Of a stretch of 64,000 nt of DNA, positions 1,548-59,790 are shown piece by piece. The notes below the pieces were generated by a model. It was not told the DNA's origin, ran no database searches, and worked only from the letters and a program-made list of their open reading frames with translations. Location of the stretch: NCBI RefSeq assembly GCF_009914755.1, contig NC_060927.1. The stretch is one strand, 5' to 3'. The DNA is from the human T2T-CHM13v2.0 reference genome, Homo sapiens. Position 1 is the first letter of the stretch. Every line of letters starts with the position of its first letter. A program made the translations under genes and the position numbers.

Positions 1548-4500
1548 ATACCAGAATCTCTGGGACACATTTAAAGCACTGTGTAGAGGGAAGTTTATAG
1601 CTCTAAATGCCCACAAGAGAAAACAGGAAAGATCTAAAATTGACACCCTATCACAATTAAAAGAACTAGAGAAGCAAGAGCAAACACATTCAAAAGCTAG
1701 CAGAAAGCAAGAAATAACTATGATCAGAGCAGAACTGAAGGAGATAGAGACACAAAAAACCCTTCAAAAAAATCAATGAATCCAGGAGCTGGTTTTTTGA
1801 AAAGATCAACAAAATTGATAGACTGCTAGCAAGACTAATAAAGAAGAAAAGAGAGAAGAATCAAATAGATGCAATAAAAAATGATAAAGGGGATATCACC
1901 ACCGATCCCACAGAAATACAAACTACCATCAGAGAATACTATAAACACCTCTACGCAAATAAACTAGAAAATCTAGAAGAAATGGATAAATTCCTCGACA
2001 CATACACCCTCCCAAGACTAAACCAGGAAGAAGTTGAATCTCTGAATAGACCAATAACAGGATCTGAAATTGCGGCAATAATTAATAGCTTATCAACCAA
2101 AAAAAGTCCAGGACCAGATGGATTCACAGCCGAATTCTACCAGAGGTACAAGGAGGAACTGGTACCATTCCTTCTGAAACTATTCCAATCAATAGAAAAA
2201 GAGGGAATCCTCCCTAACTCATTTTATGAGGCCAGCATCATCCTGATACCAAAGCCTGGCAGAGACACAACCAAAAAAGAGAATTTTAGACCAATATCCC
2301 TGATGAACACTGATGCAAAAATCCTCAATAAAATACTGACAAACCAAATCCAGCAGCACATCAAAAAGCTTATCCACCATGATCAAGTGGGCTTCATCCC
2401 TGGGATGCAAGGCTGGTTCAACACACACAACTCAATCAACATAATCCAGCATATAAACAGAACCAAAGACAAAAACCACATGATTATCTCAATAGATGCA
2501 GAAAAGGTCTTTGACAAAATTCAACAATCCTTCATGCTAAAAACTCTCAATAAATTAGGTACTGATGGGACATATCTCGAAATAATAAGAGCTATCTATG
2601 ACAAACCCACAGCCAATATCATACTGAATGGAAAAAAACTGGAAACATTCCCTTTGAAAACTGGCACAAGACAGGGATGCCCTCTCTCACCACTCCTATT
2701 CAACATAGTGTTGGAAGTTCTGGCCAGGGCAATCAGGCAGGAGAAGGAAATAAAGGGCATTCAATTAGGAAAAGAGGAAGTCAAATTGTCCCTGTTTGCA
2801 GATGACTTGACTGTATATCTAGAAAACCCCATTGTCTCAGCCCAAAATATCCTTAAGCTGATAAGCAACTTCAGCAAAGTCTCAGGATACAAAATCAACG
2901 TGCAAAAATCACAGGCATTCTTATACACCAACAACAGACAAACAGAGAGCCAAATCATGAGTGAACTCCCATTCACAATTGCTTCAAAGAGAATAAAATA
3001 CCTAGGAATCCAACTTAAAAGGGATGTCAAGGACCTCTTCAAGGAGAACTACAAACCACTGCTCAATGAAATTAAAGAGGATACAAACAAATGGAAGAAC
3101 ATTCCATGCTCATGGATAGGAAGAATCAATATCGTGAAAAGGGCCATACTGCCCAAGGTAATTTATAAATTCAATGCCATACCCATCAAGCTACCAATGA
3201 CTTTCTTCACAGAATTGGAAAAAACGACTTTCAAGTTCATATGGAACCAAAAAAGAGCCGGCATTGCCAAGTCAATCCTAAGCCAAAAGAACAAAGCTGG
3301 AGGCATCACGCTACCTGACTTCAAACTATACTACAAGGCTACGGTAACCAAAACAGCATGGTACTGGTACCAAAACAGAGATATAGACCAATGGAACAGA
3401 ACAGAGCCCTCAGAAATAATGCCGCATATCTACAACTATCTGATCTTTGACAAACCTGACAAACACAAGCAATGGGAAAAGGATTCCCTATTTAATAAAT
3501 GGTGCTGGGAAAACTGGCTAGCCATATGTAGAAAGCTGAAACTGGATCCCTTCCTTACACCTTATACAAAAATCAATTCAAGATGGATTAAAGACTTAAA
3601 TGTTAGACCTAAAACCATAAAGAGCCTAGAAGAAAACCTAGGCATTACCATTCAGGACATAGGCATGGGCAAGGACTTCATGTCTAAAACACCAAAAGCA
3701 ATGGCAACAAAAGCCAAAATTGACAAATGGGATCTAATTAAACTAAAGAGCTTCTGCACAGCAAAAGAAACCACCATCAGAGTGAACAGGCAACCTACAA
3801 AATGGGAGAAAATTTTTGCAACCTACTCATCTGACAAAGGGCTAATATCCAGAATCTACAATGAACTCAAACAAATTTACAAGAAAAAACCAAACAACCC
3901 CATCACAAAGTGGGCAAAGGATATGAACAGACACTTCTCAAAAGAAGACATTTATGCAGCCAAAAAACACATGAAAAAATACTCATCATCACTGGCCATC
4001 AGAGAAATGCAAATCAAAACCACAATGAGATACCATCTCACACCAGTTAGAATGGCGATCATTAAAAAGTCAGGAAACAACAGGTGCTGGAGAGGATGTG
4101 GAGAAATAGGAACACTTTTACAGTGTTGGTGGGACTGTAAACTAGTTCAACCATTGTGGAAGTCAGTGTGGCGATTCCTCAGGGATCTAGAACTAGAAAT
4201 ACCATTTGACCCAGCCATCCCATTACTGGGTATATACCCAAAGGATTATAAATCATGCTGCTATAAAGACACATGCACACATATGTTTATTGCGGCACTA
4301 CTCACAATAGCAAAAACTTGGAACCAACCCAAATGTCCAACAATGATAGATTGGATTAAGAAAATGTGGCACATATACACCATGGAATACTATGCAGCCA
4401 TAAAAATAATGAGTTCATGTCCTTTGTAGGGACATGGATGAAGCTGGAAACCATCATTCTCAGTAAACTATTGCAAGGACAAAAAACCAAACACCGCATG

Positions 4501-4750
4501 TTCTCACTCATAGGTGGGAATTGAACAATGGGAACACATGGACACAGGAAGGGGAACATCACATACCAGGGACGTTGTGAGGTGGAGGGAGGGGGGAGGG
4601 ATACCATTAGGAGATATACCTAATGCTAAATGACCAGTTAATGGGTGCAGCACACCAACATGGCACATGTATACATATGTAACAAACGTGCACGTTGTGC
4701 ACATGTACCCTAAAAGTATAATAATAATAAAAGTAATAAAAATAAAAGAA
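1548..4750 (+). mobile_element. L1 'A': 5'-truncated L1PA3/4-like LINE-1 (ORF2 RT and C-terminal part, 3'UTR, A/TAA tail)
   Basis: ORF 1982..4429 (815 aa) is L1 ORF2p with QGCPLSP and FADD motifs. 3'UTR and tail present. No TSD found. Confidence 0.95.
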
Positions 4751-57100: not shown

Positions 57101-59790
57101 CTGAATAGACCAATAACAGGATCTGAAATTGAGGCAATAATTAATAGCTTACCAACCAAAAAAAGTTCAGGACTAGATGGATTCACAGCCAAAATCTACC
57201 AGAGGTACAAGGAGGAGCTGGTACCATTCCTTCTGAAACTATTCCAATCAATAGAAAAAGAGGGAATCCTCCCTAACTCATTTTATGAGGCCAGCATCAT
57301 CCTGATACCAAAGCCTGGCAGAGACACAACCAAAAAAGAGAATTTTAGACCAATATCCCCGATGAACACTGATGCAAAAATCCCCAATAAAATACGGGCA
57401 AACCAAATCCAGCAGCACATCAAAAAGCTTATCCACCATGATCAAGTGGGCTTCATCCCTGGGATGCAACGCTGGTTCAACATACACAACTCAATCAACA
57501 TAATCCAGCATATAAACAGAACCAAAGACAAAAACCACATGATTATCTCAATAGATGCAGAAAAGGCCTTTGACAAAATTCAACAGCCCTTCATGCTAAA
57601 AACTCTCAAAAATTAGGTACTGATGAGACCTATCTCAAAATAATAAGAGCTATCTATGACAAACCCACAGCCAATATCATACTGAATGGAAAAAAACTGG
57701 AAACATTCCCTTTGAAAACTGGCACAAGACAGGGATGCCCTCTCTCACCACTCCTATTCAACATAGTGTTGGAAATTCTGGCCAGGGCAATCAGGCAGGA
57801 GAAGGAAATAAAGGGCATTCAATTAGGAAAACAGGAAGTCAAATTGTCCCTGTTTACAGATGACATGATTGTATATCTAGAAAACCCCATTGTCTCAGCC
57901 CAAAATCTCCTTAAGCTGATAAGCAACTTCAGCAAAGTCTCAGGATACAAAATCAATGTACAAAAATCACAAGCATTCTTATACACCAATAACAGACAGA
58001 GAGCCAAATCATGAGTGAACTCCCATTCACAACTGCTTCAAAGAGAATAAAATACCTAGGAATCCAACTTACAAGGGATGTCAAGGACCTCTTCAAGGAG
58101 AACTAGAAACCAATGCTCAATGAAATTAAAGAGGATACAAACAAATGGAAGAACATTCCATGCTCATGGGTAGGAAGAATCAGTATCGTGAAAATGGCCA
58201 TACTGCCCAAGATAATTTATAGATTCAACGCCATCCCCATCAAGCTACCAATGACTTTCTTTACAGAATTAGAAAAAACTACTTTAAATTTCATATGGAA
58301 CCAAAAAAGAGCCCACATTGCCAAGTCAATCCTAAGCCAAAAGAACAAAGCTGGAGGCATCACGCTACCTGACTTCAAACTATACTACAAGGCTACGGTA
58401 ACCAAAACAGCATGGTACTGGTACCAAAACAGAGATATAGATCAATGGAACAGAACAGAGCCCTCAGAAATAATGCCACATATCTACAACTATCTGATCT
58501 TTGACAAACCTGACAAAAACAAGCAATGGGGAAAGGATTCCCTATTTAATAAATGGTGCTGGGAAAACTGGCTAGCCATATGTAGAAAGCTGAAACTGGA
58601 TCCCTTCCTTACACCTTACACAAAAATTAATTCAAGATGGATTAAAGACTTAAATGTTAGACCTAAAACCATAAAAACCCTAGAAGAAAACCTAGGCAAT
58701 ACCATTCAGGACATAGGCATGGGCAAGGACTTCATGTGTAAAACACCAAAAGCAATGGCAACAAAAGCCAAAATTGACAAATGGGATCTAATTAAACTAA
58801 AGAGCTTCTGCACAGCAAAAGAAACTACCATCAGAGTGAACAGGCAACCTACAGAATGGGAGAAAATTTTTGCAATCCACACATCTGACAAAGGGCTAAT
58901 ATCCAGAATCTACAATGAACTCAAATTTACAAGAAAAAAAAACAAACAACCCCATCAACAAGTGGGTGAAGGATATGAACAGACTCTTCTCAAAAGAAGA
59001 CATTTATGCAGCCAAAAGACACATGAAAAAATGCTCATCATCACTGGCCATCAGAGAAATGCAAATGAAAACCACAATGAGATACCATCTCACACCAGTT
59101 AGAATGGCAATCATTAAAAAGTGAGGAAAACAACAGGTGCTGGAGAGGATGTGGAGAAATAGGAACACTTTTACAGTGTTGGTGGGACTGTAAACTAGTT
59201 CAACCATTGTGGAAGTCAGTGTGGCGATTCCTCAGAGATCTAGAACTAGAAATACCATTTGACCCAGCCATCCCATTACTGGGTATATAGTCAAAGGACT
59301 ATAAATCATGCTGCTATAAAGACACATGCACACGTATGTTTATTGCGGCATTATTCACAATAGCAAAGACTTGGAACCAACCCAGATGTCCAACAATGAT
59401 AGACTGGATTAAGAAAATGTGGTACATATACACCATGGAATACTATGCAGCCATAAAAAATGATGAGTTCATGTCCTTTGTAGGGACATGGATGAAGCTG
59501 GAAACCATCATTCTAAGCAAACTATCGCAAGGACAAAAAACCAAACACCGCATGTTCTCACTCATAGGTGGGAATTGAACAACGAGAACACATGGACACA
59601 GAAAGGGGAACATCACTCTCTGGGGACTGTTGTGGGGTAGGGGGAGTGGGGAGGGATAGCATTAGCAGATATACCTAATGTTAAATGACGAGTTAACGGG
59701 TGCAGCACACCAACATGACACATGTATACATATGTAACAAACCTGCATGTTATGCACATGTACCCTAAAACTTAAAGTATAATTTAAAAA
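53670..59790 (+). mobile_element. L1 'D': full-length (~6.1 kb) inactive L1PA4-like LINE-1
   Basis: 5'UTR starts ggaggagccaagat. ORF1 (~54694-55704) and ORF2 (55768-59578) are both broken by frameshifts or stops. It retains the ~129-bp 5'UTR segment (54441-54568) lost in younger L1PA3-L1HS. Confidence 0.95.

What the first reader, a model, noticed from the sequence alone, without database searches (positions are those of the whole stretch)
1548..59790. Local gene-conversion network among four L1s of different ages, with the inverted copy C as likely hub
Seen in sequence, C and D share the nonsense plus missense pair GAGAACTAGAAACCAATG (C 34671-3 minus, D 58104-6; consensus ...TACAAACCACTG). 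They also share the peptide changes ISIV, PKII and TTLNF, CCTTACACAAAAA, and four 3'UTR changes (C 33091-33170 vs D 59611-59690). A and D share AACTCAATCAACATAATC (~2429/~57488), GGAAAAAAACTGGAAACATT (~2629/~57688), GATGTCAAG and GCTACGGTA. A and C share GCCATACCCATC (3176/34536) and AGCCTAG. A, C and D share GAAATTAAAG and TTACAGTGTTGG (LLQC). The sharing pattern switches along ORF2, and subfamily-diagnostic sites are mixed within elements. A shared stop codon is unlikely to descend from an active source element. Inference: repeated non-allelic gene conversion over 20-55 kb, probably favoured by inverted pairing. Crossovers would invert or delete ULK4 exons, so conversions would be the outcomes that survive.
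Basis: partly seen in the sequence, partly recalled or inferred. Interest (0 to 1): 0.85.

Follow-up and report, generated by a model that had tools for sequence, protein, structure and literature searches.

The report
Neighbouring L1 copies swapped sequence patches
Several old L1 retrotransposon copies lying in introns of the human ULK4 gene share patches of otherwise almost unique mutations, best explained by ancient copying of sequence from one neighbour to another, a known process seen here in unusually clear detail.

Summary

The shared variants are not subfamily markers:
- The A/D 18-mer occurs 2 times in the 3.1-Gb genome, only in A and D.
- A C/D 3'UTR 36-mer occurs 2 times, only in C and D.
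- The C/D stop-plus-missense 18-mer occurs in 4 of 13,470 copies.

Against 60 random genomic L1PA copies, A-D share 10 rare variants and C-D share 11. The background mean is 0.66 and the 99th percentile 5.6. The shared sites cluster in tracts.

D's nearest relative changes along its length: A in one part, C in another (SH-aLRT 99 each), and an outside copy F elsewhere (94). B, C and D each have their own 16-bp target-site duplication.

Old non-allelic gene conversion is the best reading (about 0.78).
- The full-length element D is the best-connected copy, not C.
- C and D exchanged sequence in both directions.
- B takes no part, while copies outside the window (F, H) are related.

This is a new, well-resolved example of a known process. 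Interest is moderate.

The parts
1548..4751 (+). L1 copy A, 5'-truncated (about 3.2 kb), intermediate-old subfamily type; recipient of patches
   Evidence: Self-BLAST. Rare-variant density is 1.7%. No convincing target-site duplication was found.
2310..3028 (+). A side of the A-D tract, with an outlying shared site at 3343. It holds 8 rare variants shared only with D.
   Evidence: The 18-mer at 2429-2446 occurs only in A and D genome-wide. 7 of 10 shared sites lie within 447 bp, p=0.003. A+D form a clade with SH-aLRT 99. A-D divergence here is 3.2%, against 4.4-5.2% for other pairs involving A or D.
6090..9513 (+). L1 copy B, twin-primed (6090-7364 inverted, 7365-9513 forward), the youngest copy and not part of the exchange
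   Evidence: 16-bp TSD at 6076-6091 and 9509-9524. B shares 0-1 rare variants with A, C and D. Its kin is a chr1 copy, L038: 9 shared variants spread evenly, clade support 100.
32975..36220 (-). L1 copy C, 5'-truncated, a younger subfamily type than A and D
   Evidence: 16-bp TSD at 32965-32980 and 36221-36236.
34488..34671 (-). C side of C-D tract 1 (= D 58106-58289). It carries the shared TAG stop, the adjacent missense change, and the changes giving ISIV, PKII and TTLNF.
   Evidence: C-D differ at 3 of 200 sites here, against 5.5-7.0% for other pairs. 6 of 11 shared sites lie within 183 bp, p=0.0012. The three-variant haplotype occurs 3 times genome-wide.
34078..34158 (-). C side of C-D tract 2 (= D 58619-58699). 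Here C carries D/F-type alleles that its kin H lacks.
   Evidence: At A coordinates 3574 and 3645, C = D = F = old allele while H = young allele.
33085..33169 (-). C side of C-D tract 3 in the 3'UTR (= D 59611-59696)
   Evidence: 20 consecutive concordant polymorphic sites; 0 of 10,000 permutations reached this. C-D differ at 2 of 100 sites, against 13-16% for other pairs. The 36-mer occurs only in C and D genome-wide.
53670..59789 (+). L1 copy D, full length (about 6.1 kb), the oldest type and the best-connected member
   Evidence: Homology to other L1s runs from 53677 and a canonical-looking 5' start is visible. 16-bp TSD at 53353-53368 and 59790-59805. 26 of its 64 rare sites are shared with A, C or F.
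57369..58082 (+). D side of the A-D tract (plus 58397)
58106..58289 (+). D side of C-D tract 1, with the TAG codon at 58104-58106
59611..59696 (+). D side of the 3'UTR C-D tract. Here D carries younger C/H-type alleles that its kin F lacks.
19168..48993 (-). ULK4 exons (19168-19350, 29631-29792, 48910-48993) lying between the exchanging L1s
   Evidence: Annotation supplied with the finding; not tested here.

Best explanation
A, C and D are independent L1PA insertions of different ages in ULK4 introns. After insertion they exchanged short patches by non-allelic (ectopic) gene conversion, without crossover. A break or gap in one copy was repaired using a neighbouring copy 20-55 kb away as template. 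That copied the donor's private, post-insertion mutations into the recipient, including a stop codon.

Several events are needed:
- D to A, over about 0.7 kb of ORF2.
- C to D, at the stop-codon tract and in the 3'UTR.
- D to C, at A coordinates 3565-3645.
- Probably C to A, at a few sites.

The tracts are 1.5-3.2% diverged, so the events are millions of years old. With a recalled rate of about 1e-9 per site per year, this is very roughly 8 My for C-D and 16 My for A-D.

Shown: independent insertions, near-unique shared haplotypes, clustering into tracts, and a change of nearest relative along D. Inferred: the repair mechanism, the directions and the dates.
For: 1. Genome-wide exact counts. 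The A/D 18-mer occurs 2 times and the A/D 20-mer 6 times. The C/D 36-mer occurs 2 times and the C/D three-variant haplotype 3 times. The stop-plus-missense 18-mer occurs 4 times among 13,470 copies that carry one of the four states. Single-change copies number 98 and 51.

2. The extra carriers on chr2, chr15 and chr20 are 90-93% copies that share with both C and D nothing beyond the variants used to find them.

3. Rare-variant sharing is A-D 10 and C-D 11, against a mean of 0.66 over 884 other pairs. D's best match among the panel copies listed at the top is 4.

4. The shared sites cluster. For A-D, 7 of 10 lie within 447 bp (p=0.003). For C-D, 6 of 11 lie within 183 bp (p=0.0012), and all 11 lie in the 3' half (p=0.0006). 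In the 3'UTR there is a run of 20 concordant polymorphic sites (p about 1e-4). True dispersed kin pairs (B-L038, L050-L057) instead share variants evenly along the element (p=0.97 and 0.67).

5. Segment trees. D pairs with A in 2306-3040 (99), with C in 3041-3240 plus 4546-4645 (99), and with F in the remaining columns (94).

6. Separate 16-bp TSDs for B, C and D, and no flank homology in the self-BLAST. The copies are not duplicates, and no crossover has separated the TSD pairs.

7. Directions. The tract A shares with D contains 2437C, a marker of the D/F lineage. D carries the C/H-lineage variants 3059A and 3073T, and C/H-type alleles at 4246 and 4565 where F keeps the old state. C carries D/F-type alleles at 3574 and 3645 where H has the young state.

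8. Tract divergences are 3.2% for A-D and 1.5-2.0% for C-D, against 4.4-16% for other pairs.
Against: - The Sawyer-type run test is significant only for the C-D 3'UTR tract. The other five pairs, A-D included, give p = 0.31-0.97.
- The A-D tract is patchy. A lacks the D/F markers 2717A and 2798A that lie inside it, and differs from D at 2932. One continuous transfer does not fit.
- Tree partitions were chosen after seeing the data, so their support values are inflated.
- Direction calls rest on 1-4 sites each, and on treating F and H as kin of D and C. C+H has SH-aLRT of only 13 in the non-tract tree.
- No TSD was found for A.
- D-F and C-H share variants evenly, like kin, yet lie only 20 kb and 410 kb apart. 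Conversion does not obviously explain that.
- k-mer counts miss carriers that have a second nearby mutation.
- The panel comes only from chr1:0.1-47 Mb, and only from copies with the common 18-mer.
- No ape orthologue, second human haplotype or read data could be examined.
Confidence: 0.78

Rival explanations
1. Shared descent only. The copies come from very small source sub-lineages, or are parent and daughter (D is full length), and landed near each other. The variants were present at insertion and nothing was exchanged afterwards.
For: Small sub-lineages exist. B and a chr1 copy share 9 rare variants, and L050/L057 share 13. D-F share 9 and C-H share 6, spread evenly along the elements with matching subfamily states, as kin would. 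A's private-variant density inside the A-D tract equals its density elsewhere, as if the variants were there from A's birth.
Against: One element (D) has three different nearest relatives along its length. A-D and C-D sharing is clustered, unlike true kin pairs. D carries younger C-type alleles inside an otherwise oldest-type element. L1 is not known to reinsert locally (recalled), and families of size 2-3 all within 55-470 kb are very unlikely by chance.
Confidence: 0.1
2. Exchange at the moment of insertion. Either the nascent L1 cDNA recombined with a resident neighbouring L1, or reverse transcriptase switched templates between two L1 RNAs. The mosaic would then be as old as the recipient copy.
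For: The divergence accumulated in the A-D tract since the exchange is about the same as A's own private divergence. A has no clear TSD. Chimeric L1 insertions formed with resident L1s have been described in cell-culture assays (recalled, no paper read here).
Against: C and D have clean 16-bp TSDs. Exchange went both ways between C and D, including into the older D, which cannot happen at D's own insertion. Template switching does not explain why the partners are neighbours.
Confidence: 0.08
3. Assembly or polishing chimera between similar repeats.
For: None from the tools. It cannot be excluded without reads.
Against: The copies are about 5% diverged overall. The shared tracts are not identical; they hold private differences on both sides (23 of 730, 3 of 200, 2 of 100), which is not what mis-polishing gives.
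Confidence: 0.02
4. Parallel mutation at hypermutable sites.
For: Some shared sites are CpG-derived (A 2427, 2440/2441, 3343). Chance double hits do occur: chr15 and chr20 carry the stop-plus-missense pair, where about 0.42 such copies are expected from the single-change counts.
Against: Most tract variants are transversions or non-CpG changes. They are absent in 0-1 of 46-60 panel copies, and joint haplotypes are near-unique genome-wide.
Confidence: 0.02

Closest known systems
Homogenisation of neighbouring Alu elements by non-allelic gene conversion. Aleshin and Zhi 2010, as described in passages of PMC6598467 and PMC8230782; the original paper was not read.
   Same: Non-diagnostic (rare) mutations are shared preferentially by neighbouring copies of a dispersed retrotransposon family, and this is read as ectopic conversion.
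   Different: Those passages give a range of about 10 kb for 300-bp Alus. Here the partners are 3-6 kb L1 copies 20-55 kb apart. Tracts are resolved individually, with directions, and more than two partners are involved.
Individual L1-L1 conversions seen in long reads. Frith and Khan 2018, PMC5829575, passages read.
   Same: That paper reports conversion between L1PA3 LINEs, and conversion accompanying an inversion between oppositely oriented L1PA7 LINEs.
   Different: Those are recent, polymorphic, single events. The events here are old (1.5-3.2% diverged since), multiple, bidirectional, and without rearrangement.
Mosaic Alu elements and subfamily switches at orthologous loci. Kass 1995, Roy 2000 and others, as summarised in passages of PMC6598467 and PMC8230782.
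   Same: Mosaic patterns of diagnostic sites within one element.
   Different: In those cases the donor is usually unknown and may be anywhere. Here the donors are identifiable neighbours, because private mutations were co-transferred.
[quoted passage not shown] 1991. Seen only as an entry in the reference list of PMC5640379; not read.
   Same: An early proposal of L1 conversion.
   Different: Its content was not examined.

Membership tests
Non-allelic (interlocus) gene conversion between dispersed repeats | Partners are independent paralogous copies, not duplicates of one insertion | tested here: met
   There are distinct exact 16-bp TSDs for B, C and D, and an approximately 11-bp TSD with one mismatch for F. 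5' truncation points differ and no flank homology is seen. A's TSD was not found, so for A this rests on its different subfamily states.
Non-allelic (interlocus) gene conversion between dispersed repeats | Similarity confined to tracts, with a different history outside them (phylogenetic incongruence along the sequence) | tested here: met
   Segment divergences, clustering tests and segment trees. Caveats: the partitions are post hoc, and the run test is significant for only one tract.
Non-allelic (interlocus) gene conversion between dispersed repeats | Shared variants are not inherited from a common, dispersed source lineage | tested here: met
   Genome-wide counts are 2, 6, 2, 3 and 4. The other carriers are unrelated.
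Non-allelic (interlocus) gene conversion between dispersed repeats | No crossover: flanks and order unchanged | tested here: met
   Both TSD halves of C and of D still flank their own element. Exon order follows the annotation supplied with the finding.
Non-allelic (interlocus) gene conversion between dispersed repeats | A pre-conversion state seen in an outgroup or another haplotype | not testable with these tools
   No ape or second human assembly is held. F and H were used as stand-ins for the unconverted D and C.
Recombinant or minor L1PA sub-lineage (mosaic by descent) | The same mosaic haplotype is present in several dispersed copies | tested here: not met
   The joint haplotypes are found only at this locus, or in this chr3 region.
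Segmental duplication of one L1-bearing segment | Homology continuing into the flanks, shared TSD | tested here: not met
   Self-BLAST matches stop at the L1 ends; only unrelated Alus match elsewhere. The TSDs differ.
Twin-primed L1 insertion (copy B) | Inverted 5' segment joined to a forward 3' segment, a single TSD around both | tested here: met
   A 23-bp gap at the junction is visible.

The most novel reading that the evidence does not exclude
Sequence exchange among dispersed L1 copies may be pervasive and long-range, from tens to hundreds of kb. In that case many L1PA copies would be local mosaics, and divergence-based ages and subfamily calls would be systematically distorted.

The hints are these:
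- Carriers of rare L1 variants lie within 100 kb of each other about 10-30 times more often than a rough null predicts.
- A second locus on chr11 has a 98.3%-identical 1.1-kb patch between L1s 10 kb apart.
- The haplotype 3073T+3181A exists only in three copies, within 470 kb on chr3.

An even bolder variant: the evenly shared D-F and C-H variants reflect preferential local reinsertion of L1 progeny.
Probability: 0.2. Interest if true: 0.7.

Novelty: new member of a known kind. Interest (0 to 1): 0.45.

Why it matters
Ectopic conversion between retrotransposon copies is accepted, but for L1 it is documented mostly by isolated cases. This locus gives a worked example in which donors, recipients, tract limits and rough dates can be read. 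It includes transfer of a nonsense codon and transfer from a younger into an older element.

It shows that the age or subfamily of an individual L1PA copy can be wrong locally.

It also shows that repeats 20-55 kb apart inside a gene have paired repeatedly without producing the exon-deleting or exon-inverting crossover. That bears on how often L1 pairs threaten gene integrity.

The k-mer uniqueness test used here would scale to a genome-wide survey on complete assemblies.

Tried and rejected
1. chr15 and chr20 copies. I first suspected that these, which also carry the stop-plus-missense 18-mer, revealed a dispersed sub-lineage. They are 93% and 90% copies that share with both C and D nothing beyond that pair of changes. 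The idea was rejected. The chr2 copy with the three-variant haplotype behaves the same way.

2. Strict doubleton counting undercounted the sharing, because single panel copies hit the same sites by chance. It was replaced by a rarity threshold.

3. A gapped pattern with a miscounted gap found nothing, not even C and D. It was checked locally and corrected.

4. The older L1 copy E (60980-63385) was considered as donor of the C/D variants. Its states do not match.

5. A simple linear subfamily order, D then A then C then B, explained the AD|BC sites but not the AB|CD sites. Copy H showed that two of the four odd sites (2932, 3424) are natural to C's lineage, and only 3574 and 3645 need a transfer from D.

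6. A single continuous D-to-A tract, and 'F is a daughter of D born before or after that transfer', both fail on the interleaved A-shared and F-shared sites. This is left unexplained.

Only one pair was examined.

9. Literature searches found no systematic study of local L1-L1 homogenisation in the searchable library. Subscription papers are not covered, so this is not proof that none exists.

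
Full report
WHAT IS THERE

The window holds four L1PA copies that align to each other over about 3.2 kb at roughly 95% identity for every pair.
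- A is 1548-4751 (+).
- B is a twin-primed copy, 6090-7364 inverted plus 7365-9513 forward.
- C is 32975-36220 (-).
- D aligns to other L1 copies from 53677 onward and begins with a canonical-looking L1 5' end, so it is a full-length element of about 6.1 kb, 53670-59789.
- An older L1 (E, 60980-63385, about 85%) takes no part.

B, C and D each have their own exact 16-bp target-site duplication. These lie at 6076-6091/9509-9524, 32965-32980/36221-36236 and 53353-53368/59790-59805. In the self-comparison the matches stop at the L1 ends. These are therefore independent retrotranspositions, not segmental duplicates. I found no convincing duplication for A.

THE OBSERVATION

Translation confirms that C and D share an in-frame TAG followed by a missense change. 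They also share the residues giving ISIV, PKII and TTLNF.

Among sites where the four copies split two against two, AD|BC has 32, AB|CD 19 and AC|BD 7. These are sorted along the element.

IS IT SUBFAMILY STRUCTURE?

I fetched 60 L1PA copies from the first places on chr1 that carry the common form of the 18-mer and aligned them with A-D.

About half of the two-against-two sites are common polymorphisms in this panel, so they are ordinary subfamily markers. Ordering the panel by its own rare-variant load gives a staircase. It places D as the oldest type, then A, then C, with B youngest. Rare-variant densities are 2.0%, 1.7%, 1.4% and 0.7%.

What remains is a set of variants that are absent or singleton in the panel:
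- 10 shared by A and D
- 11 shared by C and D
- 4 shared by A and C
- 1, 1 and 0 for A-B, B-C and B-D

The 884 other pairs with at least 1.5 kb of overlap average 0.66 per 3.2 kb, with a 99th percentile of 5.6. D's best match among the panel copies listed at the top of that call shares 4.

GENOME-WIDE RARITY

The whole genome could be scanned for exact patterns.

| Pattern | Count genome-wide |
|---|---|
| A/D 18-mer | 2 (A and D only) |
| A/D 20-mer | 6 |
| C/D 3'UTR 36-mer | 2 (C and D only) |
| C/D three-variant haplotype | 3 |
| Stop-plus-missense 18-mer | 4 of 13,470 copies with one of the four states |
| Stop change alone | 98 |
| Missense change alone | 51 |

From the single-change counts, about 0.4 double carriers are expected by chance. 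The extra carriers on chr15, chr20 and chr2 are 90-93% copies that share with both C and D nothing beyond the variants used to find them.

One caveat applies. Exact k-mers miss carriers that have a second mutation nearby, so a hidden family of a few members cannot be excluded.

TRACTS

A-D sharing is concentrated at A 2310-3028, with an outlier at 3343. Seven of the 10 sites lie within 447 bp (p=0.003).

C-D sharing lies entirely in the 3' half (p=0.0006). Six of 11 sites lie within 183 bp (p=0.0012). A 3'UTR block forms a run of 20 concordant polymorphic sites, which 0 of 10,000 permutations reached. That run test is not significant for the other five pairs, A-D included (p=0.31-0.97). The older tracts are interrupted by later private mutations.

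Two pairs of genuinely dispersed kin, B with chr1 copy L038 and L050 with L057, share their 9 and 13 rare variants evenly along the element (p=0.97 and 0.67).

Pairwise divergence shows the same tracts:

| Segment (A coordinates) | Pair | Divergence | Other pairs |
|---|---|---|---|
| 2306-3040 | A-D | 3.2% | 4.4-5.2% (pairs with A or D) |
| 3041-3240 | C-D | 1.5% | 5.5-7.0% |
| 4546-4645 | C-D | 2.0% | 13-16% |

Trees built on these partitions with the panel pair A with D (SH-aLRT 99) and C with D (99). In the remaining columns D pairs with an outside copy F (94). The partitions were chosen after seeing the data, which inflates these supports.

COPIES OUTSIDE THE WINDOW

Copy F is a twin-primed, internally deleted L1 with its own short duplication. 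It lies about 20 kb beyond D, at roughly window coordinates 79.3-81.8 kb.
- F shares 9 rare variants with D, spread evenly, and has D's subfamily states.
- The joint D/F haplotypes occur 3, 4 and 4 times genome-wide, with different chance partners each time.

Copy H lies 410 kb away at chr3:42.26 Mb.
- H shares 6 rare variants with C over the whole length.
- The haplotype 3073T+3181A exists in exactly three copies in the genome: A, C and H.

F and H behave like kin of D and C. I used them as stand-ins for the unconverted state.

DIRECTIONS (inferred, from few sites)

- The tract A shares with D contains 2437C, which F also has. This points to D as donor to A.
- D carries 3059A and 3073T, which C shares with H. 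D also has the younger C/H-type alleles at 4246 and 4565, where F keeps the old state. So C donated to D at the stop-codon tract and in the 3'UTR.
- C carries the old D/F-type alleles at 3574 and 3645, where H has the young ones. So D donated to C there.
- A carries three C/H-lineage variants (3073T, 3181A, 4472T). This suggests some transfer from C to A.

No single hub stands out as donor. By number of shared variants, D is the most connected: 26 of its 64 rare sites are shared with A, C or F, against 1 of 22 for B. B is adjacent to A but youngest, and is not involved.

WHAT DOES NOT FIT

The A-D tract is patchy. A lacks the D/F markers 2717A and 2798A that lie inside it, differs from D at 2932, and has a dense run of private changes at 2807-2914. 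Neither order of 'F splits from D' and 'D converts A' explains the interleaving. Patchy repair of a long heteroduplex, or several short events, must be assumed.

It is also unexplained why evenly sharing, kin-like pairs (D-F, C-H) lie so close together.

MECHANISM AND RIVALS

The best reading is repeated non-crossover repair that used a neighbouring L1 as template. The intact duplication pairs around C and D show that no crossover was resolved between them.

- Pure shared descent fails on D's three nearest relatives, and on younger alleles sitting inside the oldest element.
- Exchange at the time of insertion could fit A, because tract age is about A's age and A has no duplication. It cannot fit transfers into the older D.
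- An assembly artefact is unlikely because the tracts carry private differences on both sides. Reads were not available.
- Parallel mutation is excluded by the genome-wide counts.

COMPARISON WITH WHAT IS KNOWN

- Passages of PMC6598467 and PMC8230782 describe excess sharing of non-diagnostic mutations between neighbouring Alus within about 10 kb, citing Aleshin and Zhi 2010, which I did not read.
- PMC5829575 (passages read) reports a conversion between L1PA3 LINEs, and an inversion with conversion between inverted L1PA7 LINEs.
- Burton et al. 1991 on L1 conversion was seen only as a reference-list entry.
- Five searches found no systematic analysis of local L1-L1 homogenisation in the searchable library.

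This locus is therefore a new, detailed member of a known kind.

A WIDER HINT

In the lists of carriers of three rare variants, pairs within 100 kb are 5, 2 and 2, against 0.48, 0.13 and 0.06 expected. The null is rough, built from the neighbour density of 100 chr1 copies.

One such pair on chr11, 10 kb apart and in opposite orientation, has a 1.1-kb stretch at 98.3% identity flanked by stretches at 93.7-94.8%.

The cause was not separated among duplication, conversion and nearby kin.

Noticed in passing
genome-wide (lists): Carriers of a rare L1 ORF2 variant lie within 100 kb of another carrier about 10-30 times more often than a rough null predicts: 5, 2 and 2 pairs observed, against 0.48, 0.13 and 0.06 expected. 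The 4123G list also shows close pairs on chr1, chr5, chr11 and chr13 by eye. Segmental duplication was not excluded.
   Followed up: partly
L072/L073 (chr11:35,836,260-35,839,860 and 35,844,358-35,847,958): Two L1 copies lie 10 kb apart in opposite orientation. One is internally rearranged. A 1.1-kb stretch is 98.3% identical, while the flanking L1 stretches are 93.7-94.8% identical. This looks like a second conversion or inversion case.
   Followed up: partly
L053/L054 (chr1:42.10 and 42.12 Mb); also L046, L047, L049, L050 (chr1:40.95-41.08 Mb): Panel copies that happen to be neighbours share many rare variants. L053/L054 share 14, and pairs among L046, L047, L049 and L050 share 5-6.
   Followed up: no
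window 53353-53689: An Alu (about 53369-53669) sits exactly between D's 5' target-site duplication (53353-53368) and the L1 5' end (53670). It is either a later Alu insertion at the junction or a 5' transduction carried from D's source locus.
   Followed up: no
L068 5304-7790 (about 79.3-81.8 kb in window coordinates, outside the window): L1 copy F is twin-primed, with an internal deletion of about 0.7 kb, and has its own approximately 11-bp duplication with one mismatch. It is the closest relative of D outside the tracts.
   Followed up: yes
L074 (chr3:42,259,446-42,262,696) and chr3:42,301,601: Copy H is 410 kb from the window and is kin-like to C. A further L1 41 kb from H carries the same rare missense change (3059A) as H, C and D.
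   Followed up: partly
window 2807-2914: A has five private rare changes within 108 bp (2807, 2811, 2849, 2899, 2914), inside the region otherwise shared with D. This may be a patch from an unidentified donor, or a mutation cluster.
   Followed up: no
L016, L018, L020 and L017, L019 (chr1:12.4-12.8 Mb): Groups of panel copies have the same identity to D and the same alignment ends. L017/L019 share 29 doubletons. These are probably segmental duplicates. L019 was dropped from later counts.
   Followed up: no
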